The notes: generated by a model from the sequence alone, not told the origin. 64,000 bases of DNA from a virus (IMGVR_UViG_3300025437_000009), one strand, 5' to 3'. Shown: positions 6,969 to 21,455, counted from the stretch's first letter. Program-made: numbers and translations.

Positions 6969-6997
6969 TTGACATCCGGGGTGTAGTATAGTATAAT
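6969..6997 (+). promoter_or_regulatory. sigma70-type promoter
   Basis: Perfect TTGACA-N17-TATAAT upstream of the 7022 gene and the glycan island. Confidence 0.85.
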
Positions 6998-7336: not shown

Positions 7337-8120
7337 AGGTGTAGTAGTATTTGCTTTTAATACTACCATAGACTATGTTGCTATTGCAGATCAAACAAGT
7401 CGACTGATTGGCCACACATTAAATTTACCCATTACACTGATCACTGACTTAGATAGCACACCCAAGTTTGCATACGATCATATTGTTCGAATAGAAAAAC
7501 AGGGCGACACATTTAAAACAGAAGATATGTCGTTCCGCTGGAGAAATCTTGGTAGACATTTAGCCTATGATCTCAGTCCCTACGATGAAACAGTTTTACT
7601 GGATACTGATTATCTTGTATTGGATGATAGCCTATTAAAATTGTTTGCTACAGATTTTGATTATCGGTTAATGCACCACAATGCAACACCCGAAGGACCA
7701 AGTTATGAACTAATGGGTGAAACAAGCCTTCCGTTTATTTGGGCCACAGTAGTCCTTTTTAGAAAAACAGAACGTGCTAGGTTATTTTTTGATCTTGTAG
7801 GGCGAGTTCAACGGAACTACGCCTACTATCGTGCTTTGTACAATATTCGTGAAGGAAATTTCCGTAATGACTATGCATTTGCTATAGCTAACAATATCAT
7901 TAGTGGTTATTCCTTAAATGAAGACCAAGGCATTCCTTGGCGCATGTTTACACTAGAAAAGAAAATTGAACGTATAATATTAAAGGATAATTTTATACAC
8001 GTACATCACAACGAAACAGCTACAGTGGTGCCATACCAAAATATACATGTGATGGATAAGTGGTATTTACAAAGTAGTGAATTTGAACAATTAGTGGAGG
8101 CTATAGTTGAGCCAACATAA
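7308..8120 (+). CDS. GT-A-like nucleotide-diphospho-sugar transferase
   Basis: SPYDETVLLDTDYLVL (DxD motif), WATVVLFRK, FRNDYAFAIA. Confidence 0.65.
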   Translation: MNSNESVKSRGVVVFAFNTTIDYVAIADQTSRLIGHTLNLPITLITDLDSTPKFAYDHIVRIEKQGDTFKTEDMSFRWRNLGRHLAYDLSPYDETVLLDTDYLVLDDSLLKLFATDFDYRLMHHNATPEGPSYELMGETSLPFIWATVVLFRKTERARLFFDLVGRVQRNYAYYRALYNIREGNFRNDYAFAIANNIISGYSLNEDQGIPWRMFTLEKKIERIILKDNFIHVHHNETATVVPYQNIHVMDKWYLQSSEFEQLVEAIVEPT

Positions 8121-8958
8121 AGAACAACAAGGATTTGTTACCTTTGCACAAAACACAGACGCAGTGGATTATTTGGAGCTTGCTTACCTGCAGGCACTTA
8201 ACATTAAGGCAACGCAGAAGAATAACCGGTATGCGGTAATTGTTGATGCAACCACTAAGGAGAAAGTAAATGACTCTCATCGTAATACTTTTGATTATAT
8301 TATTGATCTGCCCACCGATTATAATGACACTTCCTCTGATAGAAAGTTTGCTAACGAATGGCAAGTCTTTCGTCTTACGCCTTTTAAAGAGACTATTAAA
8401 TTAGAATCAGATTTATTGTTTACAAGAAGTATTGAACATTGGTGGACTGCATTTAGATTACGGAATGTTTGTTTAAGCACAGGTGCTAAAACATTTGGCG
8501 GAATCAATGGAACTATACGCAAGTATCGGGAATTGTTTGATGCTAATCAGTTACCGGATGTCTACAACGGCCTAATGTATTTCCGCTATAGTCAAGACGC
8601 ACACAATTTTTTTGAAGCCGCACGTTATATACAGCAGTATTGGGAATATGTAAAAACTGGTCTTAAAAAATGCGTTGAAGACAAACCCAGTACAGATGTG
8701 CTATACGCATTAGCTGCACTAATGGTTGGTGAAGAAACCTGCACAATGCCTAGTATGGACTTTATAAACTTTGTACATATGAAGTCTGGATTCAATGGAT
8801 GGTCGGACACACAAAGTTGGTTAGAAACTGTTATGACAGAACGAGACGGTGATGTTATTCGAATCAATAACTTAAACCAATATGGCCCTGTACATTACTA
8901 CGATAAGAATTACTGCACTAAAGAACTAATTGAATATTATGAGTCCAGAAGAACTTAA
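8107..8958 (+). CDS. GT-A-like transferase, paralog of 7308..8120
   Basis: TPFKETIKLESDLLF aligns with the SPYDETVLLDTDYLV motif; YNGLMYFR, TDVLYALA. Confidence 0.6.
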   Translation: MSQHKEQQGFVTFAQNTDAVDYLELAYLQALNIKATQKNNRYAVIVDATTKEKVNDSHRNTFDYIIDLPTDYNDTSSDRKFANEWQVFRLTPFKETIKLESDLLFTRSIEHWWTAFRLRNVCLSTGAKTFGGINGTIRKYRELFDANQLPDVYNGLMYFRYSQDAHNFFEAARYIQQYWEYVKTGLKKCVEDKPSTDVLYALAALMVGEETCTMPSMDFINFVHMKSGFNGWSDTQSWLETVMTERDGDVIRINNLNQYGPVHYYDKNYCTKELIEYYESRRT

Positions 8959-9286
8959 AGCATATTGGGCAGAGGTAAAACCCGAAATATCAACACAACT
9001 TGAATATAGATTGCATTATAATGATGATGGTGATATTACAATGTGTAGTATGCAACAACACCCAGAATCAACTCAGTATATTGTAGTAACAAAAGAAGAA
9101 TATGATAACTATTTTCGGTATTGTGTGGTCAAAGGACAACTAGTTAAAATTGAACATAATTCAAAATATCGTGTCAGACTTAAAAAATCTACAAAGGGAT
9201 TTCCTACAGTAGCAGGACACGCAGGACTTGTAATAGAAGCAGATGAAGTATATAATAACGTAGAATACTATGAGCCAAATAATTGA
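8939..9286 (+). CDS. Hypothetical protein
   Basis: ORF overlaps both neighbours within the operon; probable start MSPEEL. Confidence 0.65.
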   Translation: MSPEELKAYWAEVKPEISTQLEYRLHYNDDGDITMCSMQQHPESTQYIVVTKEEYDNYFRYCVVKGQLVKIEHNSKYRVRLKKSTKGFPTVAGHAGLVIEADEVYNNVEYYEPNN

Positions 9287-10169
9287 CGTAGCAGATTTAG
9301 ACTGCATTTACCTAACCTATGATGAACCAAATAAAGAACAAAATTGGATCCATATACAAAATATGGTTCCCTGGGCCCGTCGTGTGGATGGTGTTAAAGG
9401 GTCAGACGCCGCCCACAAAGCCGCCGCTGATGAAAGTAGCACTGACCGTTTTATTCTTATTGACGGTGACAATATCCCAGATCCTAATTTCTTTAATCTC
9501 CAGCTGGCACTAGACGATACAAATAAAGATTGTGTATTCCGTTGGCGGGCTCGTAACGCTATTAATGGCCTAATGTATGGCAATGGCGGATTAAGTTGCT
9601 GGACTCGAGACTTCGTCTACAGTATGCGTACACACGAAGCTAGTGACGGCACCACAGAAAACGATGTAGAGTTTTGTTTTTACCCTAACTACTGGGCTAT
9701 GAGTGACTGCTATTCAACTACCTATCCTAATGCTACTCCTTTCCAGGCTTGGCGTGCTGGCTTCCGTGAAGGTGTTAAGATGTGTTTAGATCGCGGAGCA
9801 AAGCCCACGCTACAAGAGTTTGAATCACGTGTGCATGGCCGCAACTACGATCACTTGTGTATTTGGCAATCAGTTGGTGCCGATGCTGACAACGGTTTTT
9901 ATAGTATCTTGGGTGCTAGAACAGGTACTTATATGACCATGCTGACCGAGTGGGACTATCGAGTAGTACAGGACTTTTCTGTACTAGAACAAATTTGGCA
10001 AAACAACGGAGCAGAGGATCAAGACACTGATCGGTGCAGTGAGTTAGGGGATATACTGCGTCATCAGTTAGGACTACCTATTGTTGATATGGATCCGGAT
10101 GCAAGTAAGTTTTTTAAACATCATTACAAAAGTCAGTTTCGTAATCAAGGACCAATGATCCGTGAGTAA
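9270..10169 (+). CDS. GT-A-like glycosyltransferase
   Basis: RVDGVKGSDAAHKAAA...RFILIDGDN (DxD), YGNGG, AWRAGFREGVKM. Confidence 0.65.
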   Translation: MSQIIDVADLDCIYLTYDEPNKEQNWIHIQNMVPWARRVDGVKGSDAAHKAAADESSTDRFILIDGDNIPDPNFFNLQLALDDTNKDCVFRWRARNAINGLMYGNGGLSCWTRDFVYSMRTHEASDGTTENDVEFCFYPNYWAMSDCYSTTYPNATPFQAWRAGFREGVKMCLDRGAKPTLQEFESRVHGRNYDHLCIWQSVGADADNGFYSILGARTGTYMTMLTEWDYRVVQDFSVLEQIWQNNGAEDQDTDRCSELGDILRHQLGLPIVDMDPDASKFFKHHYKSQFRNQGPMIRE

Positions 10170-11547
10170 ATCAGATTTTATGGCATCAGCTGAGTGGATG
10201 AAGGAGAATCTAGGTCCTGCACTCTGTTTGGCTAAATGGAAACAAGTGAGCCTACACTTGCCCACAGGACTTAATAACTCCTGTTACCATCCACCCCTAC
10301 ATCCAATTGATGCTGACGCATTAAAAGATAATCCTGGCGCATTACATAATACTGAGCATAAGAAACAGCAACGTGTTATCATGCTTAAGAATGAAAAACC
10401 TAGTGAATGTAGTTACTGCTGGAATATAGAAGCACACGATCAATTAAGTGATCGACACTATCGATCAGGAGAACCGTGGGCTGCTGAAGACTATGAAGTA
10501 ATTAAAAATTCCACAGGAGAAGAAGATGACGTTATTCCAAGTTATGTTGAAGTTAATTTTAATCACGCCTGCAATCTCGCTTGTAGCTATTGCAGTCCAC
10601 AATTTAGTAGTTCCTGGGCACAAGAGGTTGAACGTTGGGGAGCCTATCCGACATCAAGTCCTCATAATGATCCCAGCCATTTTGTGGGTCGTAATCGTCC
10701 TATCCCTGCAAGAGAGGACAACCCCTATGTCGATGCCTTCTGGCAGTGGTGGCCAGAATTGTACCCAAAGCTCAAACACTTCCGGATGACTGGTGGTGAA
10801 CCACTAATGGATCGAAATACCTATCGGGTATTTGATTATGTCCTGGCTCTACCCAACCCCGAACTACACCTAAATGTAACCAGTAACTTTTCAGTAGATG
10901 ACTCCCTGTTTGAAAAATATTTGGGCTATGTTAAACAATTATGTAACACAAACATAGAACACTTTATGCAGTATGTTAGTTTAGACTCCGGCAAATATCA
11001 ACACGCTGAGTACATTAGACACGGACTAAACTTTCACCGTATGCAAAATAATGTACATAGATTCTTACACGAGATTCCATATCGCAATAGTCTTACATTT
11101 ATTATTACAATGAATAATCTAAGCGTGTTGGGCATACAGCAACAGTTAGAATGGATTCTTAACCTCCGCAAGTCTTATAGCACAACTTATCAACGTGTTT
11201 GGTTTGATACACCACTATTACGCCAACCTTCTTGGCAAAGTTTACAAATACTCCCAGAAGTCTATGTAGGAGTACTAGAACGTGTAGCAGACTGGATGGA
11301 ACTACATTTAGAAACACCAGACAAGCCATTTCAAGGCTTTAAAGATTACGAAGTACAACGTATGCGTCGTGACATAGATTGGATGAAAGAAGGTAGCAAA
11401 CTTGATCCAGAATATGTTAAACTACAAAGAGCAGATTTTTATCGTTTCTTTAACGAACACGATAAACGACGGAATACTGATTTTTTAACAACCTTCCCCG
11501 AAATGAAGGAATTTTGGAGCCAATGCCGATACTATGCCCAAAATTAA
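10162..11547 (+). CDS. Radical SAM protein with N-terminal auxiliary Cys cluster (Twitch/SPASM-like)
   Basis: CNLACSYC (CxxxCxxC), TGGEPL; N-terminal CLAKW..SCYH..CSYCW. Confidence 0.9.
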   Translation: MSKSDFMASAEWMKENLGPALCLAKWKQVSLHLPTGLNNSCYHPPLHPIDADALKDNPGALHNTEHKKQQRVIMLKNEKPSECSYCWNIEAHDQLSDRHYRSGEPWAAEDYEVIKNSTGEEDDVIPSYVEVNFNHACNLACSYCSPQFSSSWAQEVERWGAYPTSSPHNDPSHFVGRNRPIPAREDNPYVDAFWQWWPELYPKLKHFRMTGGEPLMDRNTYRVFDYVLALPNPELHLNVTSNFSVDDSLFEKYLGYVKQLCNTNIEHFMQYVSLDSGKYQHAEYIRHGLNFHRMQNNVHRFLHEIPYRNSLTFIITMNNLSVLGIQQQLEWILNLRKSYSTTYQRVWFDTPLLRQPSWQSLQILPEVYVGVLERVADWMELHLETPDKPFQGFKDYEVQRMRRDIDWMKEGSKLDPEYVKLQRADFYRFFNEHDKRRNTDFLTTFPEMKEFWSQCRYYAQN

Positions 11548-11817
11548 TTTAAAAGAAAAAATAGTATTTGGGAAAAAATAGTTAAAAATATAAACACATT
11601 AGCTGATCGATATGGCGGGTATTCCTGTATACAAATAAACACCGTACTACAACGTGACAATATCAATCATTTATTAGAACTAGGGCAATGGATAGAAAGC
11701 ACAGGAATCACACGCTGGACATTGTCCGAACTTGGCCCAACCCTTGGATTTAATCCAATTGGCCAATATCATTATCAAAATTGTGAAAAAAGTAATAGTT
11801 CCGGAAGAACTATTTAA
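11548..11817 (+). pseudogene. Remnant of a radical SAM gene (C-terminal barrel fragment, no start codon)
   Basis: Open frame right after the 11547 stop reads FKRKNSIWEKIVKNINTLADRYGGYSCIQINTVLQRDNINHLLELGQW, resembling the W..V.KN...I.INTV....N segment of the flanking enzymes; no CxxxCxxC. Confidence 0.6.
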
Positions 11818-11868
11818 ATTATCGATAGTATCAACAAATATAAAAAGTGTAAACTTACTTAAAAAAAT

Positions 11869-13218
11869 ATGCCAAGACTCAACAACGAAACAGATTTAGA
11901 ATATAAACGTAGAGTAATCGATATTAAATCAGACTCATTTTGTGGTGCCAAATGGTACAATGCTACCATATGGTTGGGATCAGGACAGACTACAAGTTGC
12001 CATCACCCACTGCCACATAAAGTTGCAGTAGAAGATATACTAAATAATCCTAAAGCACTACATAATACACTAACAAAGAAAAAAGAACGTGCTCAAATGC
12101 AACAGGGCGAACGCCCAGGCGGTTGTGAGTATTGTTGGAAAATAGAGGACATTGGCCGTGACAACATCAGTGATAGAGTATATAAAACAGTTATCTATTC
12201 AGACGAAGACCTGGATCAAGCATATAACCTTCCAGCAGATGCAGACGTGGATTTACAAACTTTGGAAATTGCATTCGATCGTACCTGTAATTTTGCTTGC
12301 TCTTACTGTAACCCTGCTTTCAGTTCAACTTGGGTTAATGATTTGGATCGCAACGGCCCTTACACAGGGTTGGTTAGTGATGGCCGAAATCATTTTACTC
12401 ACGGTCATGATAGCAGTCAACTTTATCGCTTTAATGAAAGCAATCCTTACGTGGATGCCTTCTTTAAATGGTGGGAATCAGACCTCCATAGAACACTAAA
12501 AGAACTGCGACTAACGGGTGGCGAGCCGCTTATGTCAGGCGACACGTGGAAGTTATTAAACTGGTTTAAAAACAATGACACTGATATGAAGTTTGCTATG
12601 AACAGCAATCTTGGTGCCAAGGATGAGCTAATTGATCGATTAATTGATGCAACGCATTCGATCAAACACTTTCATTTGTATACTAGTAATGAATCAATCA
12701 GTCAACAAAGCGAATATATTCGTGATGGACTAGTTTGGGATAACTGGGCCAACAATGTAGAAAAAATATTGACTAACGGTAGACTTGAAGGATTTCACAT
12801 GATGTGTACCGTTAACGCATTATGCTTAGACAGTTTGGTTAGTTTTTTAGAATGTGTAATGAATTGGAAACGTGAGTATGGAAAAGACTTTCCTACGTTT
12901 ACACTAAATATTTTACGCTTCCCAAGTTTTCAATCACCCCTAGTATTACCGGATTCAATTAGGACTTACTATAGAGAACAATTACAGGAATGGTTTGATC
13001 AAAATGCCTACGATGATTGTATGCATCAAATGGAACGTAATCAGTTACGTAGATTAATTGATTACCTTGATGTAGTTAAAACACCCCACGTAGGTGCAGC
13101 AGAGCAATCAGTCCTACAACAAGATTTTAAAAAGTTTTACACTCAGTATGACCAACGTCGCGGTAAAAACTTTGCCCAAACGTTCCCAAATTTAGAAGAA
13201 TGGTACAATAGTATATGA
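11869..13218 (+). CDS. Radical SAM protein with N-terminal auxiliary Cys cluster
   Basis: CNFACSYC, TGGEPL; FCGAKW..SCHH..CEYCW; close paralog of 10162..11547. Confidence 0.9.
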   Translation: MPRLNNETDLEYKRRVIDIKSDSFCGAKWYNATIWLGSGQTTSCHHPLPHKVAVEDILNNPKALHNTLTKKKERAQMQQGERPGGCEYCWKIEDIGRDNISDRVYKTVIYSDEDLDQAYNLPADADVDLQTLEIAFDRTCNFACSYCNPAFSSTWVNDLDRNGPYTGLVSDGRNHFTHGHDSSQLYRFNESNPYVDAFFKWWESDLHRTLKELRLTGGEPLMSGDTWKLLNWFKNNDTDMKFAMNSNLGAKDELIDRLIDATHSIKHFHLYTSNESISQQSEYIRDGLVWDNWANNVEKILTNGRLEGFHMMCTVNALCLDSLVSFLECVMNWKREYGKDFPTFTLNILRFPSFQSPLVLPDSIRTYYREQLQEWFDQNAYDDCMHQMERNQLRRLIDYLDVVKTPHVGAAEQSVLQQDFKKFYTQYDQRRGKNFAQTFPNLEEWYNSI

Positions 13219-14552
13219 CAGAACGTCAAAAAGAGTTTTATAAAAAGGGCTATGACTATATGTCAAAGAAGCCTATCTATATCAGTGAAGATAAACTAAC
13301 AGAAGAACAGACACGCAGATTAACTAGCGATAAACACTTTTGTATACTACCTTGGGTGCATACACATGCTTTCCCGGATGGTCGTACTTATCCCTGTTGT
13401 CTAGCAGATTACTGGCATCCCGTCGGAGACCTGCGCAAAAATACCATGGAAGAAATTTGGAACCAAGATGGTTACAAGACTATGCGACGTAACATGCTAG
13501 AGGATAAACCTTGCAAGGAATGTACCAAATGCTATGAACAAGAAGCCAGCGGCTTTTTCAGTATGCGTAACGAAGCAAATAGAAACTTAGGACACTACAT
13601 AAATGACGTTGATCAAACCCTCGACGATGGCACGCATCCTGAATTCAAAATTAGGTATTGGGATATCCGTTTTAGCAATCTCTGCAATTTCAGCTGTCGT
13701 ACCTGCGGTCCTATTTTCAGTAGCAACTGGTACAACGATCATGTCAAGCTATATAATCGCAAGCCAGATGTTCTTGGTCGCGACATGCTACGAGTGGAAT
13801 ACGCAGCAGGAGACGAAGAATCGATAATGAAACAGATGGAGCCTCATATTCCATATATGGAGCAGGTATATTTTGCTGGTGGTGAGCCACTTATTATGAA
13901 GGAACATTATTTCTTATTAGATAAATTGTTGGAACGCGATAAAACTAATACTCGACTAATCTACAATACAAACTTTAGTGAATTACATTTTAAAGACAAA
14001 CATGTATTTGACTATTGGAAAAAATTTGAAACAGTAAATGTAGGAGCAAGTCTAGATGCATCATATGCACGAGGAGAACTAATACGTAAAGGTACTGATT
14101 GGAATCAAACAGTTGAAAATCGTCGGCGTATGAAAGAAGAAGTTCCGCATGTGGATTTTTATATTAGCTCTACTATTAGTGTTATGAATGTGTTGCATGT
14201 ACTAGATTTTCATAAAGAGTGGGTTGAATTAGGGTTAATAGATCCAAAAGATTTTAATGTTAATATTTTACAAGGACCTAAATGGTATCGAATTGACATA
14301 CTACCTGAATGGTTTAAACAAGAAGTAGTCATACCAGCTTATAGAAAACATATTGAGTGGTTAGATCCCCTAGACAAACTACGTCGTGCTACTGTTGGAT
14401 TTGAAAGTGTTATTAACTTTATGTCTAATCCAGGAAATAAAAATGACTGGGACAAGTTCATTAAAGAAACTTATGTCTTGGATACCTTACGTAAAGAAAA
14501 ATTTTGGGACACGTTTCCAGAATTAATACCAGCAAAAAATGCTACAGTATAA
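13215..14552 (+). CDS. Radical SAM protein with N-terminal auxiliary Cys cluster
   Basis: CNFSCRTC, AGGEPL; FCILPW..YPCC..CTKC. Confidence 0.9.
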   Translation: MTERQKEFYKKGYDYMSKKPIYISEDKLTEEQTRRLTSDKHFCILPWVHTHAFPDGRTYPCCLADYWHPVGDLRKNTMEEIWNQDGYKTMRRNMLEDKPCKECTKCYEQEASGFFSMRNEANRNLGHYINDVDQTLDDGTHPEFKIRYWDIRFSNLCNFSCRTCGPIFSSNWYNDHVKLYNRKPDVLGRDMLRVEYAAGDEESIMKQMEPHIPYMEQVYFAGGEPLIMKEHYFLLDKLLERDKTNTRLIYNTNFSELHFKDKHVFDYWKKFETVNVGASLDASYARGELIRKGTDWNQTVENRRRMKEEVPHVDFYISSTISVMNVLHVLDFHKEWVELGLIDPKDFNVNILQGPKWYRIDILPEWFKQEVVIPAYRKHIEWLDPLDKLRRATVGFESVINFMSNPGNKNDWDKFIKETYVLDTLRKEKFWDTFPELIPAKNATV

Positions 14553-15525
14553 AAATCTACGTAGTGTACATTTAGAAATTAGCAGCCGTTGTAATGCTGC
14601 TTGTCCAGATTGCCTGCGTAACTTTCGTGGTGTTGATGTGATGGATACATATCCTGTATGTGATATGACTCTAGATCAGTTCCAGCAGATTTTTACTCAA
14701 GACTTCCTACAGCAATTACAGCATTTCACAATTAATGGTAACTACGGTGACTTTGTTACAGCACGTGACGGTCTAGAGATTGTTGAGTATATGCTCAAAG
14801 TTAATCCCAGGATTCAGGTAGAAATCAGCACAAATGCTAGTGCAAGACCAAAGTTATGGGAACCCCTTGGTCGATTGGGTGTAACTGTTTACTTCCGTTT
14901 AGATGGACTAGCAGATACGCATCACTTATACAGACAAAATACAGACTTTAATTTTATTTTAGATAACGCCAAGAAATTTATTGCCGCTGGTGGCCGTGCA
15001 GTATGGGCAATGATTAAGTTTGATCATAACGAACATCAAATTGATGAATGTAAGCAAATGTCCCAGGATTTGGGATTTGATCGTTTTGATCTAGTAGATG
15101 CTGGTCGCAATACAATGCCAGTGTTTAACAGCGAACGTCAACTGACTCACACAATTGGCAATTGGCAGGGTAGTACAGACTTTGACAAATTGTTTACATC
15201 TTATTCTTACTATAAAATAGAACCTGATATTGCTATACGCAATGAGACTGAAAATCGTACAGTAGACTGCTATGCTAAACGTCAGCAAGAAATTTATGTA
15301 GCCAGCAATGGGGAAGTGTACCCTTGCTGTTGGTTAGGTTACTATCCTTTGCATAGTAACGCAAGACCCAGTAACATACAATTAAAACCCCTAATCAAAA
15401 ACAACAATGCACTAGAATACGGATTAGAAACTGCCATTGGATGGTTCAATGCTATAGAAGAAACTTGGGATCGTACAGTACCCGAGGGAAAAATTTATGA
15501 GTGTAATAAAACCTGTGGAAAATAA
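14539..15525 (+). CDS. Radical SAM protein with C-terminal SPASM/Twitch-like domain
   Basis: CNAACPDC near the N-terminus; C-terminal DCYA..GEVYPCCW..ECNKTC. Confidence 0.9.
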   Translation: MLQYKNLRSVHLEISSRCNAACPDCLRNFRGVDVMDTYPVCDMTLDQFQQIFTQDFLQQLQHFTINGNYGDFVTARDGLEIVEYMLKVNPRIQVEISTNASARPKLWEPLGRLGVTVYFRLDGLADTHHLYRQNTDFNFILDNAKKFIAAGGRAVWAMIKFDHNEHQIDECKQMSQDLGFDRFDLVDAGRNTMPVFNSERQLTHTIGNWQGSTDFDKLFTSYSYYKIEPDIAIRNETENRTVDCYAKRQQEIYVASNGEVYPCCWLGYYPLHSNARPSNIQLKPLIKNNNALEYGLETAIGWFNAIEETWDRTVPEGKIYECNKTCGK

Positions 15526-16732
15526 CTTACCTAAAACAATTTGTATGCTACCGTGGGTTAGTATTGAAACTAGCCCACTAGGTACTACACGTCCTTGCTG
15601 TTTGGCTAACGATGAGATTGTAGATGATACAGGTCGCAAGTATGATTTAAACGAAACTAATCTTGAAGTTATATATCATAGTGAGTATATGCAGGATCTG
15701 CGTCGTCAGTTTCGTCGGGGAGAAAAACCAGAAACTTGTAATCGTTGCTGGACTGAAGAAGCCGCAGGACGTGATAGCAAACGCATACATACACAAATTC
15801 GTTTAAAAGAATTATATCAACAGGTGGACTGGGCCAATGACAATCCTGATCAACTATGGTTTGTTGACTTAAAACTGGGTAATATTTGTAATCTTAAATG
15901 TCGTATCTGTGGATCATGGTCCAGCAGTAAGTGGGCCGAAGAAGAAATGAACTATGTTAAGGCTCATACTAATCCCAAAGAACACATTGCCTACACTTGG
16001 TTAAAGCAAGGTGCTTGGCCACGTAAGACAACAACCTTTTGGGATAACCTACGTGAGTTATTACCTAATATCCGTTACTTTGAATTTACCGGTGGCGAAC
16101 CTTGGATGATACAAGAACATTTTGATCTATTACAATACGCTGTGGATCAAGGTTACAGTAAAAACATTGACATACACTACAATACCAATGCTACACAAGA
16201 TCCTTTACCACACGCAGAATTATGGCATCAATTTGGACGTGTGGATATTGCATTTAGCATTGACAACGTAGGCGATCGTTTCGAGTACGAACGCTATGGC
16301 GCTGACTGGCAACGTGCAAATGAAATAGTTGATGAAGTTCATACCCTACGTGACGGATATGGGTCCAACATTACTACACAGTTATGCTTTACTATCAACA
16401 TACAGAATGTGTACTACCTAGATGAATTGTTGGCCTGGGCAGATACCAAACCCTGGACCAGCATATACTTTAATATGTTACACGACCCTAGTTATATGAA
16501 TATACAACATATGACTCCTCAAGCACAGGAACTTGTGTTAAACAAATTAAAGAAAATTTTTTGGGCTAACAAGTTCTATCAAAAAGAAATTGATCGAGTT
16601 ATACAGTTTATTGAAAACGGCTCGGGTAGCGACGGCGAACGATTCTTGTTTGAAATGAAACGCACTGATGCGTATCGTAAACAAAACTTCGCGGACACAC
16701 ATCCAGAAATAGCTAGGACTATGGGATATTAG
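15497..16732 (+). CDS. Radical SAM protein with N-terminal auxiliary Cys cluster
   Basis: CNLKCRIC, TGGEPW; ICMLPW..RPCC..CNRCW. Confidence 0.9.
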   Translation: MSVIKPVENNLPKTICMLPWVSIETSPLGTTRPCCLANDEIVDDTGRKYDLNETNLEVIYHSEYMQDLRRQFRRGEKPETCNRCWTEEAAGRDSKRIHTQIRLKELYQQVDWANDNPDQLWFVDLKLGNICNLKCRICGSWSSSKWAEEEMNYVKAHTNPKEHIAYTWLKQGAWPRKTTTFWDNLRELLPNIRYFEFTGGEPWMIQEHFDLLQYAVDQGYSKNIDIHYNTNATQDPLPHAELWHQFGRVDIAFSIDNVGDRFEYERYGADWQRANEIVDEVHTLRDGYGSNITTQLCFTINIQNVYYLDELLAWADTKPWTSIYFNMLHDPSYMNIQHMTPQAQELVLNKLKKIFWANKFYQKEIDRVIQFIENGSGSDGERFLFEMKRTDAYRKQNFADTHPEIARTMGY

Positions 16733-17965
16733 ATGATTAAGAAATTAATTACTCGATCTAGATATGAATCGTTTGCAGGTTCGTCTTGGCCTAGCTACGA
16801 AGAATTTCAAACCGGTAATTATAATTCCAATTCAAATATACAAAAAGAAATTGACGAGTTTATCAAGTTGATGCATGATGAATTAAAATTTTTAGATAAT
16901 ACAGAAATAAATTTAAAAACTTCAGAAACAAGTAGTTGGCAAACTAAAGAACGTCCCTTAACATGGAACATAGTAAATCATGATTTATTGTATAAAAGAA
17001 AAATAAAAAACTTACCGTCTAGTAAAAGCGGAATACAAACAGTTTGTTCTAAACCGTTTAGCAATATTTCAATTGATTTTGATGGTCGTATTTTTTTATG
17101 CGATTGCCCAGGCTGGTTGCCTTTTCCTGTGGGACACGTGACAGAGTTTAACTCAGCAGCTGAAGTATTTGATCATCCCACAGCAATAGAGATACAAAAT
17201 TCTATCTTAGACAAAATTTATAATTTTTGTGATGTCGACACCTGCAGACTGCCAAAAGACGGTTCAACAACGATCGTCCGTAGTCCCGTTAGGTTATACG
17301 TTGGTATAGATAAAAGTTGTAATTTAACTTGCCCTAGTTGCAGAGAACGTCCGTTGTTTTTCAAAGAAGGTGAAGAAGTGGAAAAACGTAAAAAATGGGC
17401 TGACCATATATGTAATTGGATTACAGCTGATCAAACAAAGTCTTGGACTATTATAATTGGTGCCGACGGAGATCCTTTTGTTAGTTATGTATACGAATAT
17501 CTATTAGAAAAGTTGCAATTATTAAACAATATAACTTTTGAATTTATGACAAACGGGTTATTTTTAAAAAGACAGTTAAGTAAGTTAGCTCCAGAGTTTT
17601 TATCTAAAATTAAATCAATCAATGTAAGTATTGATGCAGCCACAGAAGAAACATATAAAATAATTCGACGTGGCGGAAATTGGAAACACCTAATAGAAAA
17701 TTTAGAATATCTACAGGAAATATCAATCAGCAATAATATACAAACTGTTGGAAATTTAATTATACAAGAGGGCAATTTTACAGAAGCCGTTGGGTTTGTT
17801 GACTTATGCAAACACTATAACATGAAACCAAATCTTACATTGATTGAAGATTGGGGAACTTGGCACGATTTTGCAAAACATGCGGTGCATCATTCAGACC
17901 ACCCTCGATATAGCGAATTTGTTAAAGTATTTTCTGATTCAAAATTACAATTTTTTAAACCATGA
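16733..17965 (+). CDS. Radical SAM protein (AT-rich, divergent member)
   Basis: CNLTCPSC, GDPF, SIDAATEETY.IIRRGG.W; VCSKPF..FLCDC..FC...C; extra N-terminal WPSYEEF segment. Confidence 0.88.
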   Translation: MIKKLITRSRYESFAGSSWPSYEEFQTGNYNSNSNIQKEIDEFIKLMHDELKFLDNTEINLKTSETSSWQTKERPLTWNIVNHDLLYKRKIKNLPSSKSGIQTVCSKPFSNISIDFDGRIFLCDCPGWLPFPVGHVTEFNSAAEVFDHPTAIEIQNSILDKIYNFCDVDTCRLPKDGSTTIVRSPVRLYVGIDKSCNLTCPSCRERPLFFKEGEEVEKRKKWADHICNWITADQTKSWTIIIGADGDPFVSYVYEYLLEKLQLLNNITFEFMTNGLFLKRQLSKLAPEFLSKIKSINVSIDAATEETYKIIRRGGNWKHLIENLEYLQEISISNNIQTVGNLIIQEGNFTEAVGFVDLCKHYNMKPNLTLIEDWGTWHDFAKHAVHHSDHPRYSEFVKVFSDSKLQFFKP

Positions 17966-19254
17966 ACAAACCAGAAACACTATGCATGGCTCCGTGGACT
18001 CATACTTATTTGAGTCCACAAACAGAAAGACGTATGTGTTGTGCGTCGCGTGAACCAGCGCAAAACTTTGAGCAGTACATAGACACATCCAGCGGAACTG
18101 GTCGTTACATTCCTGTAACATTAGATGAACATTGGAATAGTGAACATATGAAAAGTGTGCGACAACGCATGATGGCTGGCGAAACATTGCCCGAGTGCGA
18201 AGTATGCAATGATAAGTTGCTCAATACTGACATTTACCGTAGTTATTTTAACCAGCTGTTTGGGCATAAGTATTTACAAGCCATGGAGCAGACTGATGCC
18301 TCAGGCTACACGACAATGAAGCCAGTATCGTGGGATTACAGATTTAGCAACCTTTGTAATTTTAAGTGCCGCATGTGCGGTGACATGTTGAGTAGTGCTT
18401 GGGAGAGCGAGCAGAAACAACACGGGATGATCGACTTGACGAATCCAAAAAATAACTGGATGCGTCCTGAAGTCAAGGTAGAAATAGAAAAGTTTCAAGA
18501 CACCCAGGTAGAGCAAGAGTTTGCTACTGCTGTTGAGGAGCACCGAGTGGAAGAGGTGTATTGGGTGGGAGGTGAGCCGTTAATGTACGAACAGCACTGG
18601 CGTTACATGAAACGGATTATTGAACTTGGAGATGGAAAAAATGTTTACGCTAGATACAACACTAATCTTAGTCGCATCAATTATCGCGGTATCAATCTGT
18701 ATAGGGATATTTTATCTGGGCTACGTGACTGGCAAATCTGCGCAAGCATCGATGGCACGGGCCGAATTGGAGAGTATATTAGAACAGGTCTTAATTTTGA
18801 TGAGTGGCTTAAGAACATCACTGAAGGACTTGCGTACAGCAGTCACCGCCGCCAAATCCGTTTGGACTTCACTCTTACTACACCAGGACTCTTTGAAGTT
18901 CAAAAGATACAAGAACTCGCGCAAAAACTTGGAGTAGACGTTTTAGCAAAGGTGGTGTTCTCTTTTTCACCGGACATTGTTATGTCACCGCTAGCACTAC
19001 CTAGGGAAGTATTACATCCTTGGATAGACGAAATCTTGCACACCATTGATAAAGGTGCCCTACACGACATATTAGTCCAACTGAAAACTAGACCCACTTT
19101 TGCTGAACAATGGCCCGACACGTATCAAACAGGACTCCAAAAGGGCAAACGCCGCATATTAGAACTTGAAAAAATTCGAAAAGACCAGTATACTTTTAGA
19201 GATATTATGGCTCTAAGACCACAAGTACTGGAATGGTATGACTCAATCAATTAA
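17962..19254 (+). CDS. Radical SAM protein with N-terminal auxiliary Cys cluster
   Basis: CNFKCRMC, VGGEPL; LCMAPW..RMCC..CEVC. Confidence 0.9.
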   Translation: MNKPETLCMAPWTHTYLSPQTERRMCCASREPAQNFEQYIDTSSGTGRYIPVTLDEHWNSEHMKSVRQRMMAGETLPECEVCNDKLLNTDIYRSYFNQLFGHKYLQAMEQTDASGYTTMKPVSWDYRFSNLCNFKCRMCGDMLSSAWESEQKQHGMIDLTNPKNNWMRPEVKVEIEKFQDTQVEQEFATAVEEHRVEEVYWVGGEPLMYEQHWRYMKRIIELGDGKNVYARYNTNLSRINYRGINLYRDILSGLRDWQICASIDGTGRIGEYIRTGLNFDEWLKNITEGLAYSSHRRQIRLDFTLTTPGLFEVQKIQELAQKLGVDVLAKVVFSFSPDIVMSPLALPREVLHPWIDEILHTIDKGALHDILVQLKTRPTFAEQWPDTYQTGLQKGKRRILELEKIRKDQYTFRDIMALRPQVLEWYDSIN

Positions 19255-20323
19255 AGTAGTACTGCGAAATCCTTTAAATTATAATGACCAAATTGATTAT
19301 ACAATTGAATCTTTTGATCACGAGTTATCGCATGATTGGATACAAGCACTCAAGGGACTACTACAGTCAAAAAACCTATTAGAAAAAAATTACTGTTTTA
19401 TGGGTTTTCCTAAAACAGCTCGCACATTAGAATACCTATGTGGAGAAGTAAATCTAGCAGCGGCAACTATAAACAATTTTTTCAGTGACTATCGAATTGA
19501 GGAAGTATATACTCCCGATAATGTAGTTGGATTTGACTACGCTGACCATGGTGTAAATCATGAGATGTTAAATACTCTACATAATCATTTTGAAAGACTG
19601 CAAGGAACTGTTTGGAATTTAAGTGATTATTATCGTCGGGCCGATTACGATACAAAGTACGCAATACGTCAATTGAATAATCTATGTCACGAAATAGAAA
19701 ATTTAATTCTCAGCAAACGTAAAGAACGAGAATTACCTTATTGGGTTCGTCCGAGCCAAATTACTACATTCATTAACAGTCCTCGATTAGATTTAAAAGA
19801 CTCGCATAGGCAAGGATTTGTTACCAATGGTTATAACCGTGTGCTAGGTGGAGTTTATATGCACTGGACACAGATAGGCAAAACTCTATATGAAGTATTC
19901 CGAGATGAACATGCTCCTAAACTAACTGACACAGTATGCGAAGCTATTACAGAATTACGCTACTACTCAGGAGAATTTGATGTAGAGTGGGGCAATGATG
20001 TAGTACTCAATGGTGGACATCCGTGGCATGATCGAGAACAAGAAGATTTTTGTTATTGGTTAATGGCCAATGGGCGCGATCCACTAGATCCCAAACTAAG
20101 TTTGGGATATTTGCCACTGGGACAGATAAAGTTATTGGAAAGTTTTGGCACCACTGATTACAAGGAAATTTGGAATACCTTGTCCGACCATTTGGACATT
20201 TATCAAATTGAAGTAGATGGAGTTGTAAGTACGTTTGACTACTGCTGGACTGACAGCAACTACAAGCAAATGCAAATTGACATGATGAAACCTGGATATG
20301 ATTACAGTTCTCGCCGGGGGTGA
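19238..20323 (+). CDS. Hypothetical protein
   Basis: 361 aa ORF overlapping both neighbours; no motif recognised. Confidence 0.75.
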   Translation: MTQSIKVVLRNPLNYNDQIDYTIESFDHELSHDWIQALKGLLQSKNLLEKNYCFMGFPKTARTLEYLCGEVNLAAATINNFFSDYRIEEVYTPDNVVGFDYADHGVNHEMLNTLHNHFERLQGTVWNLSDYYRRADYDTKYAIRQLNNLCHEIENLILSKRKERELPYWVRPSQITTFINSPRLDLKDSHRQGFVTNGYNRVLGGVYMHWTQIGKTLYEVFRDEHAPKLTDTVCEAITELRYYSGEFDVEWGNDVVLNGGHPWHDREQEDFCYWLMANGRDPLDPKLSLGYLPLGQIKLLESFGTTDYKEIWNTLSDHLDIYQIEVDGVVSTFDYCWTDSNYKQMQIDMMKPGYDYSSRRG

Positions 20324-20846
20324 TAGTTTCGTTTGGGGCAGTGAGTTAGCTGATAGCCCGCATGGTGGAGCTGATGGCTTTAGTAAGCAGACATTTACTG
20401 CCCTACTAGGGGATCGTTATATCTGTGCCGCATACCCAGGGTTGGGCAATAGGGAAATAGCTTATCGTGTAAGAGATGCCCTAATATACACTCGCCCAGA
20501 TATTGTTGTAGTTTGCTGGACTTGGCCTGGTAGAGATAATATGTTGGATAGTGATCACTACATAAAAGGACTGCAAGCACACCTGGTTTATCATAATATT
20601 CCTTATATGTTTACCTGTGCTGACAACTGTGTTGTAACAGGTAAATTGGATTACGATAATTGGTACATGTTCCCACCAGGACAAGAGCTATGGGAAACCA
20701 CACAGCCAAGAGGTTTTTATCAGTGGGCAGTAGAGAATAAATACCCTGTAGGACCTGAACATCATCCACTAGAATTAGCACATCAAGATGCTGCTAAATT
20801 AATGAAAGAAAAATTCAATGCAATGGTTAAAAAATCTATACAATAG
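20298..20846 (+). CDS. SGNH/GDSL-fold hydrolase or O-acyltransferase-like protein
   Basis: GGDSF..G, YPGLGN, C-terminal HHPLELAH. Confidence 0.6.
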   Translation: MITVLAGGDSFVWGSELADSPHGGADGFSKQTFTALLGDRYICAAYPGLGNREIAYRVRDALIYTRPDIVVVCWTWPGRDNMLDSDHYIKGLQAHLVYHNIPYMFTCADNCVVTGKLDYDNWYMFPPGQELWETTQPRGFYQWAVENKYPVGPEHHPLELAHQDAAKLMKEKFNAMVKKSIQ

Positions 20847-20919
20847 AATAGTCTTAGAAATACGTTATCGCAAAAAACTAAAAGAGTTGCGTAAGCGAGA
20901 TCCATTTATTTACAAATGA
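20818..20919 (+). CDS. 33 aa basic peptide MQWLKNLYNRIVLEIRYRKKLKELRKRDPFIYK
   Basis: Below the ORF-track cutoff; fills the gap between two SGNH genes and overlaps the next gene in an ATGA junction. Confidence 0.65.
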   Translation: MQWLKNLYNRIVLEIRYRKKLKELRKRDPFIYK

Positions 20920-21455
20920 TATTAGTCAACGGCGATAGTTTTACCTATGGTGAAGAAAGTTCTATTGCTTGGCCCAATTTGATTGCTAATACCGTAAACA
21001 TAGCGGAATCTGGCTATAGCAATGATGCTATCGTTAGGACGACTGTGAATTCAATTGAATCTTGTTTGTTATCCGTTGAGTATGTTATTGTTGCATGGAC
21101 TACCCCAAACAGAATAGAAGTTAACGGCCAGCATCTAACTCCGCATAGTCATAGAAAGTACGGATCAATCTGTGATTATGTATTTTTAGACTGGAATGAA
21201 CAGTGGGCTACTGCAAAATTCCGTACACAGGTTGCACTATTAGATGCTTATATAAAAAGCAAAAGCATACCTTACGTTTTTATTAGAACTTTTGATGTTC
21301 CTGAAACTACAGTAGGAAATTGGATGCCGGGTAGTATAGTAGAATGGATGGGCGATTGTCCCAAAGGCCCGGGCGGACATCCGCTAGAACTTGGACAAGT
21401 AAGAATAGCAGAACATGTCGAAAAATATATTAGGAATCTCGGCTGGCTTCCATGA
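20916..21455 (+). CDS. SGNH/GDSL-fold protein
   Basis: NGDSFTYG, GYSNDAIVR, GGHPLELGQ. Confidence 0.6.
   Translation: MILVNGDSFTYGEESSIAWPNLIANTVNIAESGYSNDAIVRTTVNSIESCLLSVEYVIVAWTTPNRIEVNGQHLTPHSHRKYGSICDYVFLDWNEQWATAKFRTQVALLDAYIKSKSIPYVFIRTFDVPETTVGNWMPGSIVEWMGDCPKGPGGHPLELGQVRIAEHVEKYIRNLGWLP

What the first reader, a model, noticed from the sequence alone, without database searches (positions are those of the whole stretch)
10162..19254. Seven tandem radical SAM enzymes, six with the auxiliary Fe-S domain N-terminal
Seen: all seven carry CxxxCxxC and are translationally coupled. In six, the auxiliary Cys set (C..PW/KW...CC or SC.H...CxxC) precedes the SAM cluster; only 14539..15525 has it at the C-terminus. 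Known: SPASM/Twitch domains are normally C-terminal (anSME, AlbA, PqqE, BtrN, MoaA). BtrN-type Twitch enzymes oxidise sugar hydroxyls, and anSMEs and RiPP maturases modify peptides. Inference: a permuted, paralog-expanded family doing serial oxidation or epimerisation of sugars, or modifying virion proteins. The Fe-S cost implies strong selection.
Basis: partly seen in the sequence, partly recalled or inferred. Interest (0 to 1): 0.8.

Follow-up and report, generated by a model that had tools for sequence, protein, structure and literature searches.

The report
Phage array of N-terminal-Twitch radical SAM enzymes
A giant freshwater phage carries seven side-by-side iron-sulfur radical enzymes, most from a catalogued but never-studied family with its second iron-sulfur module at the front. 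They sit in a sugar-building operon behind the tail-fibre genes, so they probably reshape a sugar coat, but the reaction is unknown.

Summary
There are seven + strand genes at 10162-19254, each with one CxxxCxxC. Six have a conserved four- or five-Cys module before the core, and one (14539-15525) has it after. One detail is wrong: only five of the six junctions overlap or abut, and R1/R2 are 321 nt apart.

The architecture is already catalogued. R1, R2, R3, R5 and R7 score 299-398 bits (cut-off 170) on NCBIfam NF033640, 'N_Twi_rSAM'. R6 and R4 fall outside it. I found no paper on this family.

The five are old paralogues (21-33% identical) that form a fixed, ordered set in many uncultured large phages. 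Arrays of 5-6 are usual, and up to 11 occur. R4 and R6 are accessory.

The array is the core of an 18-gene packed operon. It also encodes glycogenin-like glycosyltransferases, a NodU-type carbamoyltransferase and a kinase. A DegT aminotransferase and a sugar dehydratase/epimerase lie nearby. Bacterial relatives also sit among glycan genes.

The best reading is stepwise radical tailoring of a sugar or glycan. This rests on context only; the chemistry is untested.

This scan has met the same kind of array before on other DNA (e1-5338036, e1-2033308). It is a catalogued family, an undescribed system and an unknown function.

The parts
4121..5986 (+). Tail-fibre protein with a C-terminal S74 intramolecular chaperone domain. 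It marks the structural module just upstream.
   Evidence: Pfam Peptidase_S74, E 8e-9. Syntenic in 26 related loci.
6019..6957 (+). 312-aa protein rich in Ser/Thr/Gly/Asn with no family match, probably fibre-associated. It is a candidate glycan acceptor (inference only).
   Evidence: Translation. No Pfam or NCBIfam hit. Conserved position in 35 loci.
6969..6997 (+). Perfect sigma-70-type promoter match (TTGACA-17-TATAAT), 25 nt before the first gene of the packed block.
   Evidence: This is a consensus match only; the total number of promoter-like sites in the region is not above the shuffled expectation.
7022..7336 (+). First gene of the operon, 104 aa, unknown function.
   Evidence: Conserved in 34 loci.
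7308..8120 (+). GT8 (glycogenin-like) glycosyltransferase paralogue.
   Evidence: A joint profile with 8107-8958 matches glycogenin-1 and glycogenin-2 structures, best E 1.2e-5. No Pfam hit for the single sequence.
8107..8958 (+). GT8 (glycogenin-like) glycosyltransferase paralogue.
   Evidence: Present in 57 of 80 viral loci.
8930..9286 (+). 118-aa protein, unknown function, variably present.
9270..10169 (+). Most conserved non-rSAM partner, with an invariant D65-x-D67-N68 motif. Possibly a GT-A glycosyltransferase (weak).
   Evidence: R1 follows within two genes in 60 of 62 loci. Invariant residues. Sub-threshold Glyco_tranf_2_3 hits in 5 of 16 members, best E 0.038. Its nearest Atlas clusters are viral or mostly viral.
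10162..11547 (+). R1, N-terminal-Twitch radical SAM, subtype B (C-x-A-K-W / S-C-Y-H-P). GTG start.
   Evidence: NF033640 at 299.1 bits, cut-off 170. Cys conservation.
11548..11868 (+). 321-nt gap holding an 89-codon open frame with no start codon. Probably the remnant of a lost gene.
   Evidence: Weak match (E 1e-4) to the gene that lies between R1 and R2 in locus L016. Many relatives carry a gene at this position.
11869..13218 (+). R2, N-terminal-Twitch radical SAM, subtype B.
   Evidence: NF033640 at 300.7 bits..
13215..14552 (+). R3, N-terminal-Twitch radical SAM, subtype A (P-W / P-C-C).
   Evidence: NF033640 at 397.6 bits. Pfam SPASM on residues 43-106 (46.3 bits), followed by Radical_SAM on residues 152-316. 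AlphaFold2 model with pLDDT 93.1 and pTM 0.91.
14539..15525 (+). R4, a short canonical radical SAM with a C-terminal Twitch-like five-Cys module. Accessory gene.
   Evidence: CxxxCxxC at residue 18. C244, C263, C264, C322 and C326 are kept in 9 of 9 relatives. NF033640 only 21.9 bits. Found in 6 of 80 viral loci.
15497..16732 (+). R5, N-terminal-Twitch radical SAM, subtype A. It has one extra invariant Cys, C297.
   Evidence: NF033640 at 339.5 bits. C297 kept in 48 of 48 orthologues.
16733..17965 (+). R6, a divergent radical SAM with a 100-aa leader and its own N-terminal four-Cys module. Accessory gene.
   Evidence: NF033640 at 43.8 bits, below the cut-off. Pfam SPASM E 0.01 on residues 105-167. 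Cys kept in 7 of 7 relatives. The N-domain HMM hits three R6-clade relatives (E 2e-10 to 4e-5) but not R6 itself.
17962..19254 (+). R7, N-terminal-Twitch radical SAM, subtype A. It has one extra invariant Cys, C260.
   Evidence: NF033640 at 300.2 bits. C260 kept in 50 of 50 orthologues.
19238..20323 (+). Conserved gene that follows R7, unknown function. Possibly a cyclophilin-like barrel with a helical insert.
   Evidence: Present in 35 loci. AlphaFold2 model with pLDDT 84. Cyclophilin matches at only Z 7-8.5, which is within the background range.
20298..20846 (+). Small protein with an N-terminal GDS motif, SGNH-hydrolase-like by motif only.
   Evidence: Sequence. No family hit.
20916..21455 (+). 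Second small GDS-motif protein, SGNH-like by motif only.
   Evidence: Sequence. No family hit.
21415..22896 (+). NodU/CmcH-type O-carbamoyltransferase.
   Evidence: Pfam Carbam_trans_N (E 2e-37) and Carbam_trans_C (E 5e-46). NodU model at 134 bits, below its equivalog cut-off. Present in 39 of 80 loci.
22893..23243 (+). 116-aa protein, unknown function.
23243..24082 (+). P-loop kinase, APS-kinase-like. Last gene of the packed + strand block.
   Evidence: Pfam APS_kinase (E 9e-7) and AAA_18.
24263..25435 (-). Member of a family with a conserved TET...TEK-x-FKP-I motif. Its relatives are inserted between the rSAM genes in other phages. Possibly a glycosyltransferase (unverified).
   Evidence: Paralogue of 29863-30930, E 8e-18. 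Interleaved positions in relatives. No PDB or family hit.
27835..29004 (-). DegT/DnrJ/EryC1-type sugar aminotransferase.
   Evidence: Pfam E 7.5e-72. The same gene lies near the array in L104/L105 and L106.
28907..29866 (-). NAD-dependent sugar epimerase/dehydratase (SDR).
   Evidence: Pfam Epimerase (E 1.7e-43) and GDP_Man_Dehyd (E 1e-29).
29863..30930 (-). Second TEK-motif family member.

Best explanation
The seven genes encode real radical SAM enzymes.

What they are:
- R1, R2, R3, R5 and R7 belong to NCBIfam NF033640. In this family a one-cluster Twitch-type module (beta-hairpin flanked by Cys, then a helix starting with CxxC) lies before the radical SAM barrel instead of after it.
- R6 is a divergent relative of the same layout.
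- R4 is a short enzyme of the usual layout.
- The five family members are ancient paralogues. They travel as a fixed, ordered set in many uncultured large phages. R4 and R6 are optional additions.

Where they sit: the set is the core of an 18-gene operon (7022-24082), placed directly after the tail-fibre genes. The operon and its neighbours otherwise encode sugar-handling enzymes.

Most likely mechanism (inferred, not shown):
- Each paralogue cleaves SAM at the CxxxCxxC cluster.
- It abstracts a hydrogen from a different carbon of a nucleotide-sugar or of the growing glycan.
- It uses the four-Cys Twitch cluster as the electron relay.
- The array therefore performs several distinct radical steps (oxidation, epimerisation, deoxygenation or C-branching) on one heavily tailored glycan.
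- That glycan is further carbamoylated, possibly phosphorylated and trimmed, then ends up on a phage fibre protein or on the host envelope.

Shown here: the identity of the enzymes, their architecture, the fixed set and the gene context. Inferred: the substrate class, the reaction types and the destination of the product.
For: Family membership: NF033640 scores are 299-398 bits against a cut-off of 170, over the full model.

Permuted architecture:
- Pfam SPASM lies N-terminal of Radical_SAM in R3 and R5 above the gathering score, and in R7 just below it.
- Four Cys are invariant in the five paralogues and kept in their orthologues.
- The Cys spacing is C-x17/18-C-x41-C-x2-C. From my own knowledge, this equals BtrN's C169/C188/C232/C235.
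- In the AlphaFold2 model of R3 (pLDDT 93.1), the hairpin E49-52/E57-59 lies between C43 and C61/62. Helix 101-111 starts at C103-x2-C106.

Fixed set:
- 37 of 80 viral loci hold all five orthologues at 40% identity or more, and 33 of these keep the same order. Many of the other loci are truncated.
- Arrays of 5-6 are the mode, and up to 11 occur.
- Each of the paralogues whose placement was printed (R1, R2, R3, R5) sits in its own starred clade.

Sugar context in the window:
- two GT8-like genes;
- a carbamoyltransferase;
- an APS-kinase-like gene, a DegT aminotransferase and an SDR epimerase/dehydratase.

Independent contexts elsewhere:
- A Bacteroidota chromosome has four family members beside a GT2-methyltransferase fusion, a GT-C and a GDSL protein.
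- A MAG has a triple-fused member beside GT4, GT2, DegT, PMT_2 and a TPP-enzyme pair.
- A distant phage type has eight rSAM genes plus a carbamoyltransferase, DegT and an epimerase.

Nearest solved relatives:
- By sequence profile these are the nucleotide- or nucleoside-sugar-acting viperin, MoaA and BlsE.
- By fold, BlsE and DesII are among the tied top hits at Z 12.5-12.7.

Fused doubles follow the gene order (R1+R2, R3+R5, R5+R7). This suggests that neighbouring paralogues act together.
Against: - No family member has a known reaction, so the substrate class rests on neighbourhood alone.
- The fold matches do not discriminate. The peptide-modifying CteB, SkfB, SuiB and anSME tie with the sugar enzymes at Z 12-12.7.
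- Some bacterial contexts lack glycan genes. One has five PhyH dioxygenases, a WelO5-type halogenase and a methyltransferase. A fused R1+R2-type protein sits beside ClpXP and PadR genes.
- Several 'sugar' calls in the window are weak. The 9270 protein is GT-A-like only at E 0.04. The SGNH and TEK-motif calls rest on motifs.
- The conserved flanking gene 19238 gave no informative fold.
Confidence: 0.55

Rival explanations
1. The enzymes modify a protein directly, most plausibly a virion fibre protein such as the Ser/Thr-rich product of 6019-6957. The chemistry would be radical epimerisation, cross-linking or side-chain oxidation, as RiPP and anSME-type SPASM/Twitch enzymes do. The glycosyltransferases would act separately.
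For: - The operon lies directly behind tail-fibre genes in dozens of phages.
- The gene before the promoter encodes an unusual Ser/Thr/Gly/Asn-rich protein.
- Peptide-modifying enzymes (CteB, SkfB, SuiB, anSME) are among the tied best fold matches.
- R5, R7 and R2 carry an extra conserved Cys outside the clusters. From my own knowledge, radical SAM epimerases use such a Cys as a hydrogen donor.
Against: - No RiPP recognition element, leader-type peptide or repeat-bearing substrate gene was found in the operon.
- There are only four or five conserved auxiliary Cys, not the seven of two-cluster SPASM maturases.
- A fixed set of five deeply diverged enzymes is unusual for one protein substrate.
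- Bacterial relatives sit among GT, DegT and GT-C genes without phage fibres.
Confidence: 0.15
2. The operon makes a free small molecule (aminoglycoside-, nucleoside- or glycolipid-like) rather than a polymer-bound glycan. The radical SAM enzymes would act as the Twitch enzymes of aminoglycoside pathways do.
For: - The gene mix (Twitch-type rSAMs, an O-carbamoyltransferase, a sugar aminotransferase, a dehydratase/epimerase, glycosyltransferases and a kinase) resembles aminoglycoside and nucleoside antibiotic clusters. This is my own knowledge of BtrN, NeoN, HygY, SpeY and TobZ.
- BlsE and DesII are among the best fold matches.
- One bacterial context has dioxygenases, a halogenase-type enzyme and a methyltransferase, which is typical of natural-product tailoring.
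Against: - No transporter or resistance gene was recognised in the operon.
- The constant position behind tail-fibre genes in phages fits a structural or surface role better.
- GT-C/PMT_2-type transferases in the bacterial contexts act on lipid-linked donors at the membrane.
Confidence: 0.12
3. The module decorates nucleotides or phage DNA, as a sugar-bearing hypermodified base. The radical SAM enzymes would tailor the appended group.
For: - A thymidylate synthase and a DHFR lie just beyond the island at 30927-32307.
I did not check this.
- The nearest sequence relatives among solved structures act on nucleotides: viperin and MoaA.
Against: - The thymidylate synthase scores as an ordinary ThyA equivalog at 345 bits, above its cut-off of 327.
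- It is on the other strand, in a separate block.
- No DNA glycosyltransferase, hydroxymethylase or DNA-binding domain was recognised in the operon.
- Bacterial relatives sit in envelope-glycan contexts.
Confidence: 0.05

Closest known systems
NCBIfam NF033640, N_Twi_rSAM ('twitch domain-containing radical SAM protein')
   Same: R1, R2, R3, R5 and R7 match the full 398-position model at 299-398 bits against a cut-off of 170. They have the same architecture: a Twitch-type Cys module, then a CxxxCxxC core, then a helical C-terminal part.
   Different: - The family is a sequence model only. I found no paper or tested member.
- R6 (43.8 bits) and R4 (21.9 bits) are outside it.
- The database entry says nothing about the fixed five-paralogue set in phage operons.
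BtrN and other one-cluster Twitch radical SAM enzymes acting on sugars (BtrN; from my own knowledge also NeoN, HygY, SpeY)
   Same: - One auxiliary cluster module has four Cys in the same spacing.
- The family profile's N-terminal part aligns to BtrN residues 168-258 (E 0.065).
- The genes sit in a sugar-pathway context.
   Different: - The module is N-terminal instead of C-terminal.
- The sequence similarity is marginal.
- BtrN is not among the top fold matches, which were generic.
- No activity is known here.
anSME and RiPP SPASM maturases (anSMEcpe, CteB, SkfB, SuiB)
   Same: The radical SAM barrel superposes at Z 12-12.6 over about 220 residues. Pfam SPASM recognises the Cys module.
   Different: - There are only 4-5 conserved auxiliary Cys, so one cluster rather than two.
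- There is no recognition domain and no precursor peptide gene.
- The domain order is reversed.
BlsE, DesII, viperin and MoaA (radical SAM enzymes acting on nucleoside-sugars, TDP-sugars or NTPs)
   Same: These are the best sequence-profile hits among solved structures: viperin E 1.3e-5, MoaA E 3e-4, BlsE E 2e-3. BlsE and DesII are also tied top fold hits.
   Different: Identity is only 11-18%. Viperin has no auxiliary cluster, and MoaA's auxiliary cluster is C-terminal with three Cys (my own knowledge).

Membership tests
NCBIfam NF033640 (N_Twi_rSAM) | Whole-protein score at or above the curated cut-off of 170 bits | tested here: met
   R1 299.1, R2 300.7, R3 397.6, R5 339.5 and R7 300.2 bits. 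Not met by R4 (21.9) or R6 (43.8), which I do not file under this family.
NCBIfam NF033640 (N_Twi_rSAM) | Twitch/SPASM-type Cys module placed before the CxxxCxxC core | tested here: met
   Pfam SPASM covers R3 residues 43-106 and R5 residues 16-85, before Radical_SAM. The four Cys are invariant.
SPASM/Twitch radical SAM enzymes (as defined from solved structures) | Radical SAM core with CxxxCxxC and a GGE-type SAM-binding motif | tested here: met
   All seven have CxxxCxxC. GGEP is present in R1, R2, R3, R5 and R7; R6 has DGDP and R4 has NGNYGD. The R3 barrel matches solved radical SAM enzymes at Z 12-12.7.
SPASM/Twitch radical SAM enzymes (as defined from solved structures) | Auxiliary-cluster domain follows the barrel (C-terminal) | tested here: not met
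   In six of the seven the module precedes the core. Only R4 has it after the core.
SPASM/Twitch radical SAM enzymes (as defined from solved structures) | Beta-hairpin flanked by two Cys ligands, followed by a helix with further Cys | tested here: met
   In the R3 model, C43 precedes strands 49-52 and 57-59, C61/C62 follow them, and helix 101-111 begins at C103-x2-C106. pLDDT is 95-98 in this part. This is a prediction, not a solved structure.
SPASM/Twitch radical SAM enzymes (as defined from solved structures) | The module binds an auxiliary [4Fe-4S] cluster next to the active site | not testable with these tools
   This needs reconstitution and spectroscopy.
Two-cluster SPASM maturases (anSME, RiPP maturases) | Seven- or eight-Cys motif for two auxiliary clusters | tested here: not met
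   Only four (R1, R2, R6) or five (R3, R5, R7, R4) conserved auxiliary Cys.
Two-cluster SPASM maturases (anSME, RiPP maturases) | A recognition domain and/or an adjacent precursor peptide or target protein gene | tested here: inconclusive
   No such domain appeared in the Pfam or NCBIfam scans. No repeat-bearing or leader-like ORF was found in the window. Absence of a hit does not exclude a novel substrate.
BtrN-type sugar dehydrogenases / Twitch sugar epimerases | Detectable homology to BtrN beyond the generic core | tested here: inconclusive
   The only match is a marginal one of the N-terminal module to the BtrN Twitch domain (E 0.065).
BtrN-type sugar dehydrogenases / Twitch sugar epimerases | Oxidation or epimerisation of a sugar carbon | not testable with these tools
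   Needs enzymology.

The most novel reading that the evidence does not exclude
The fixed five-enzyme N-Twitch set is a phage-borne radical 'assembly line'. It would make a glycan with several radical-installed features, or directly rewrite residues, on a Ser/Thr-rich fibre protein. That would be a kind of virion surface chemistry not described for any virus, and each paralogue would catalyse a reaction type new to radical SAM enzymology.
Probability: 0.2. Interest if true: 0.8.

Novelty: new variant of a known kind. Interest (0 to 1): 0.55.

Why it matters
- The family is large. It has 5,525 clusters at 50% identity with E of 1e-30 or better, in a library of 1.8 billion representatives. It is common in uncultured large phages and has no known reaction.
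- Arrays of five to eleven such enzymes imply a multi-step radical pathway with no studied counterpart.
- Solving one reaction would annotate thousands of genes. It would also show what these phages build behind their tail fibres, which bears on host recognition and phage-host surface chemistry.
- The reversed domain order is a natural test of how far the position of the auxiliary cluster module in the chain matters.
- Cultured Vibrio phages K566 and K567 carry family members, so experiments are possible.

Tried and rejected
- **Near-identity DNA search of cultured phage genomes:** no match.
- **Literature searches:** 'NF033640', 'N-terminal SPASM' and 'N-terminal twitch' found nothing. 'Twitch domain-containing radical SAM' found only papers on C-terminal enzymes.
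- **8VPO:** this profile hit proved to be a cyclopropyl-synthase RiPP enzyme, not an N-terminal Twitch protein.
- **Whole-genome search of the window's own assembly:** not possible, because no genome is held.
- **Related-loci search with the five-paralogue alignment in genome contigs:** failed for lack of a conserved stretch.
- **Foldseek and VIA-align of the R3 model:** only generic radical SAM barrels, with no close solved relative.
- **Geometry of the permutation:** could not be measured, because no coordinates are available to scripts.
- **The 9270 protein:** no PDB match by sequence or profile, no similarity to the GT8-like profile, and only sub-threshold GT2 hits.
- **The 19238 protein:**
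  - no Atlas feature hit;
  - Foldseek found nothing;
  - cyclophilin-like matches came only at background Z.
- **The TEK-motif family:** no PDB or family match.
- **Complex prediction of R3 with R5:** no verdict.
- **Sequencing runs:**
  - no RNA holder listed;
  - runs holding half or more of the sampled words are freshwater metagenomes, five of six possibly the source sample;
- **Search of the window for CHxS, RGRR or Asn-Cys repeat proteins**, prompted by earlier scan notes: none found.

Full report
**1. What is in the sequence**

Seven + strand ORFs fill 10162-19254:

| Gene | Coordinates | Length |
|---|---|---|
| R1 | 10162-11547 | 461 aa, GTG start |
| R2 | 11869-13218 | 449 aa |
| R3 | 13215-14552 | 445 aa |
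| R4 | 14539-15525 | 328 aa |
| R5 | 15497-16732 | 411 aa |
| R6 | 16733-17965 | 410 aa |
| R7 | 17962-19254 | 430 aa |

- Each has exactly one CxxxCxxC. No other ORF of 100 aa or more in the window has one.
- Junctions are +321, -4, -14, -29, 0 and -4 nt. 'All translationally coupled' therefore fails at R1/R2.
- The 321-nt gap contains an 89-codon frame without a start codon.
  - It weakly resembles (E 1e-4) the gene that sits between R1 and R2 in a related phage.
  - Many relatives have a gene at this position, so the gap is probably a deletion scar.

**2. The auxiliary Cys module**

- In R1, R2, R3, R5 and R7, four Cys before the core are invariant. In R3 numbering they are C43, C61/62, C103 and C106.
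- They are kept in nearly all of the 47-68 orthologues of each paralogue.
R3/R5/R7 have P-W...P-C-C. R1/R2 have A-K-W...S-C-(Y/H)-H-P.
- R6 has its own set (C105, C123, C166, C171), conserved in 7 of 7 relatives. R4 has five Cys after the core, conserved in 9 of 9.
- Pfam places SPASM before Radical_SAM in R3 (46.3 bits) and R5 (27.9 bits), and just under the cut-off in R7.
- An HMM of the N-terminal module finds three R6-clade relatives (E 2e-10 to 4e-5). It does not find the window's own R6 significantly. It touches the 'YPCC' hairpin of R4's C-terminal module only weakly.
- The AlphaFold2 model of R3, built on 95 diverse homologues, is confident (pLDDT 93.1, pTM 0.91). It puts a beta-hairpin between the first two Cys and a helix at the CxxC, which is the Twitch pattern.
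- The Cys spacing equals that of BtrN, from my own knowledge of that structure. The family profile aligns its N-terminal part to the BtrN Twitch domain at a marginal E of 0.065.
- I could not measure where the module docks on the barrel, because coordinates are not exposed to scripts.

**3. The architecture is already catalogued**

- NCBIfam NF033640, 'N_Twi_rSAM', matches R1, R2, R3, R5 and R7 end to end at 299-398 bits against a cut-off of 170.
- R6 (43.8 bits) and R4 (21.9 bits) are outside the family.
- AlphaFold DB cluster representatives with the same fold carry names such as 'Twitch domain-containing radical SAM protein' and nothing more specific.
- Full-text searches found no paper on an N-terminal Twitch or SPASM enzyme.
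- The family is large. A profile of the five paralogues finds 5,525 clusters at 50% identity with E of 1e-30 or better.
- R3 alone has more than 7,500 relatives in the 90%-identity collection. The best 120 are 66-99% identical to it.

**4. A fixed, ancient set**

- The window is part of a large phage. It has tail-fibre genes with collar and S74 chaperone domains, an HNH endonuclease, an ATPase and an exonuclease.
- A contig with the same gene order is 274 kb long.
- The runs that hold at least half of the stretch's sampled words are freshwater metagenomes. Five of these six may be the source sample itself.
- Among 80 IMG/VR loci that encode a relative, the usual order is:
  - tail fibre, 6019, 7022, two GT8-like genes, (8930), 9270;
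  - then R1, R2, R3, (R4), R5, (R6), R7;
  - then 19238, (two small GDS-motif genes), carbamoyltransferase, and onward.
- 37 loci hold all five core orthologues at 40% identity or more, and 33 of these keep the same order. Many of the others are truncated.
- The 9270 gene is followed by R1 within two genes in 60 of 62 cases.
- Paralogues are 21-33% identical to each other, while orthologues are 45-88% identical.
- In a 425-sequence tree, each of the paralogues whose placement was printed (R1, R2, R3, R5) falls in its own well-supported clade.
- Arrays of 5-6 are the mode, and 7, 8 and 11 also occur. Other phage types have 8 or 9.
- R4 and R6 are each present in 6 of the 80 loci. The seven-gene array is therefore an ordinary member of a widespread module, not a local expansion.
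- The representative library also holds fused proteins that follow the gene order: R1+R2, R3+R5, R5+R7 and a triple.
  - One R3+R5 fusion rests on a single short contig and could be an artefact.
  - The R1+R2 fusion lies on a bacterial contig beside ClpXP.

**5. Context**

- The 18 genes from 7022 to 24082 overlap or abut, except for gaps of 321 and 69 nt.
- They follow a perfect TTGACA-17-TATAAT match at 6969-6997.
- Recognisable partners are:
  - two glycogenin-like GT8 proteins, by profile against PDB, E 1.2e-5;
  - a NodU/CmcH-type carbamoyltransferase;
  - an APS-kinase-like P-loop protein;
  - on the opposite strand, a DegT-type sugar aminotransferase and an SDR epimerase/dehydratase.
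- Weaker calls:
  - the 9270 protein has an invariant DxDN motif and sub-threshold GT2 hits;
  - two small proteins begin with a GDS motif;
  - two paralogues with a TET...TEK-x-FKPI motif have relatives interleaved between the rSAM genes in other phages, and I could not confirm a fold for them.
- The conserved gene after R7 (19238) folds confidently but matches only cyclophilin-like barrels at background Z.

**6. Contexts outside phages**

- NF033640 was over the cut-off in 3 of 301 sampled Bacteroidota genomes and in none of 14 control genomes.
- One chromosome has four members beside a methyltransferase-GT2 fusion, a GT-C and a GDSL protein.
- Another has two members beside five PhyH dioxygenases, a WelO5-type enzyme and a methyltransferase.
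- A MAG has a triple fusion beside GT4, GT2, DegT, PMT_2 and a TPP-enzyme pair.
- Glycan genes therefore recur in independent settings, but not in all of them.

**7. Mechanism**

The best-supported reading is that the paralogues perform different radical steps on a sugar or glycan, with the Twitch cluster as the electron relay.

Support:
- the gene context described above;
- the nearest solved relatives by sequence act on nucleotides or nucleoside-sugars: viperin, MoaA and BlsE;
- BlsE and DesII are among the top fold hits.

Against:
- peptide-modifying enzymes tie with the sugar enzymes in the fold search;
- no reaction is known for any family member.

One detail may guide experiments. R5, R7 and R2 keep an extra non-cluster Cys (48/48, 50/50 and 54/57), whereas R3 has none. 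Radical SAM epimerases use such a Cys as a hydrogen donor (my own knowledge). The paralogues may therefore differ in reaction type. This is conjecture.

Rivals are direct protein modification, a free small molecule and nucleotide or DNA decoration. The thymidylate synthase next to the island scores as an ordinary ThyA.

**8. Comparison with earlier scan notes**

- Earlier notes of this scan describe the same kind of array on other DNA:
  - e1-5338036 is a marine phage with five copies;
  - e1-2033308 is a CPR genome with seven copies;
  - several first-reader notes cover related contigs.
- My tests agree with them on family, fixed set and sugar context.
- A note on a different cassette, with a Cys-His-x-Ser protein (e1-1993717), led me to look for such a substrate here. 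None is present.

**9. Verdict**

- The 'permuted' architecture is genuine but already has a database family.
- The array is a typical member of a widespread, unstudied phage module.
- The function is unknown, with sugar tailoring most likely (about 0.55).
- Cultured Vibrio phages K566 and K567 carry family members at 202 and 193 bits. They offer an experimental route.

Noticed in passing
window 16760-16816 (R6 residues 10-28); also L034:12422-13675, L040:11229-12626, P0113, P0031: A roughly 20-residue motif (R-Y-E-S-F-A-G-S-S-W-P-S-Y-E-E-F-Q-T-G; general form Y..xAGxxWPxYxxF) heads R6. It also heads an R6-like enzyme and an extra R2-like enzyme in other phages, and one R3 orthologue. In another R3 orthologue it sits as a C-terminal insert. 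It looks like a sporadic tag on accessory radical SAM enzymes. Its function is unknown.
   Followed up: partly
window 11548-11868: The only sizeable gap in the array holds an 89-codon open frame with no start codon. It weakly resembles the gene found between R1 and R2 in related phages, so it is probably a remnant of a lost insert.
   Followed up: partly
P0126-P0145 (representative library); L106:10001-13612; L112:1153-4005: Fused two- and three-domain family members exist, and the fusions follow the phage gene order (R1+R2, R3+R5, R5+R7). One R1+R2 fusion lies in a bacterial contig beside ClpXP, with no glycan genes nearby. One fusion rests on a single short contig and may be an assembly artefact.
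   Followed up: partly
window 6019-6957: A 312-aa Ser/Thr/Gly/Asn-rich protein with no family match lies between the S74-chaperone tail fibre and the operon promoter. Its position is conserved in related phages. It is a possible acceptor for whatever the operon makes.
   Followed up: no
window 24263-25435 (-) and 29863-30930 (-): Two paralogues (E 8e-18) share a C-terminal TET...TEK-x-FKPI...PFLL motif. Their relatives are inserted at varying places between the radical SAM genes in other phages. No family or structure match was found.
   Followed up: partly
L101 (G082:C2:1208000-1227999): A Bacteroidota chromosome has two N-Twitch radical SAM genes next to five PhyH-type dioxygenases, a WelO5-type halogenase-like protein and a methyltransferase. 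This is an oxidative tailoring cluster with no recognisable glycosyltransferase.
   Followed up: no
L113 (Vibrio phage K566, OZ196521.1 161548-165950): A cultured 255-kb Vibrio phage carries three adjacent radical SAM genes. Two are above the NF033640 cut-off (202 and 193 bits) and one is just below (154 bits). The record annotates them only as 'radical SAM domain-containing protein'.
   Followed up: partly
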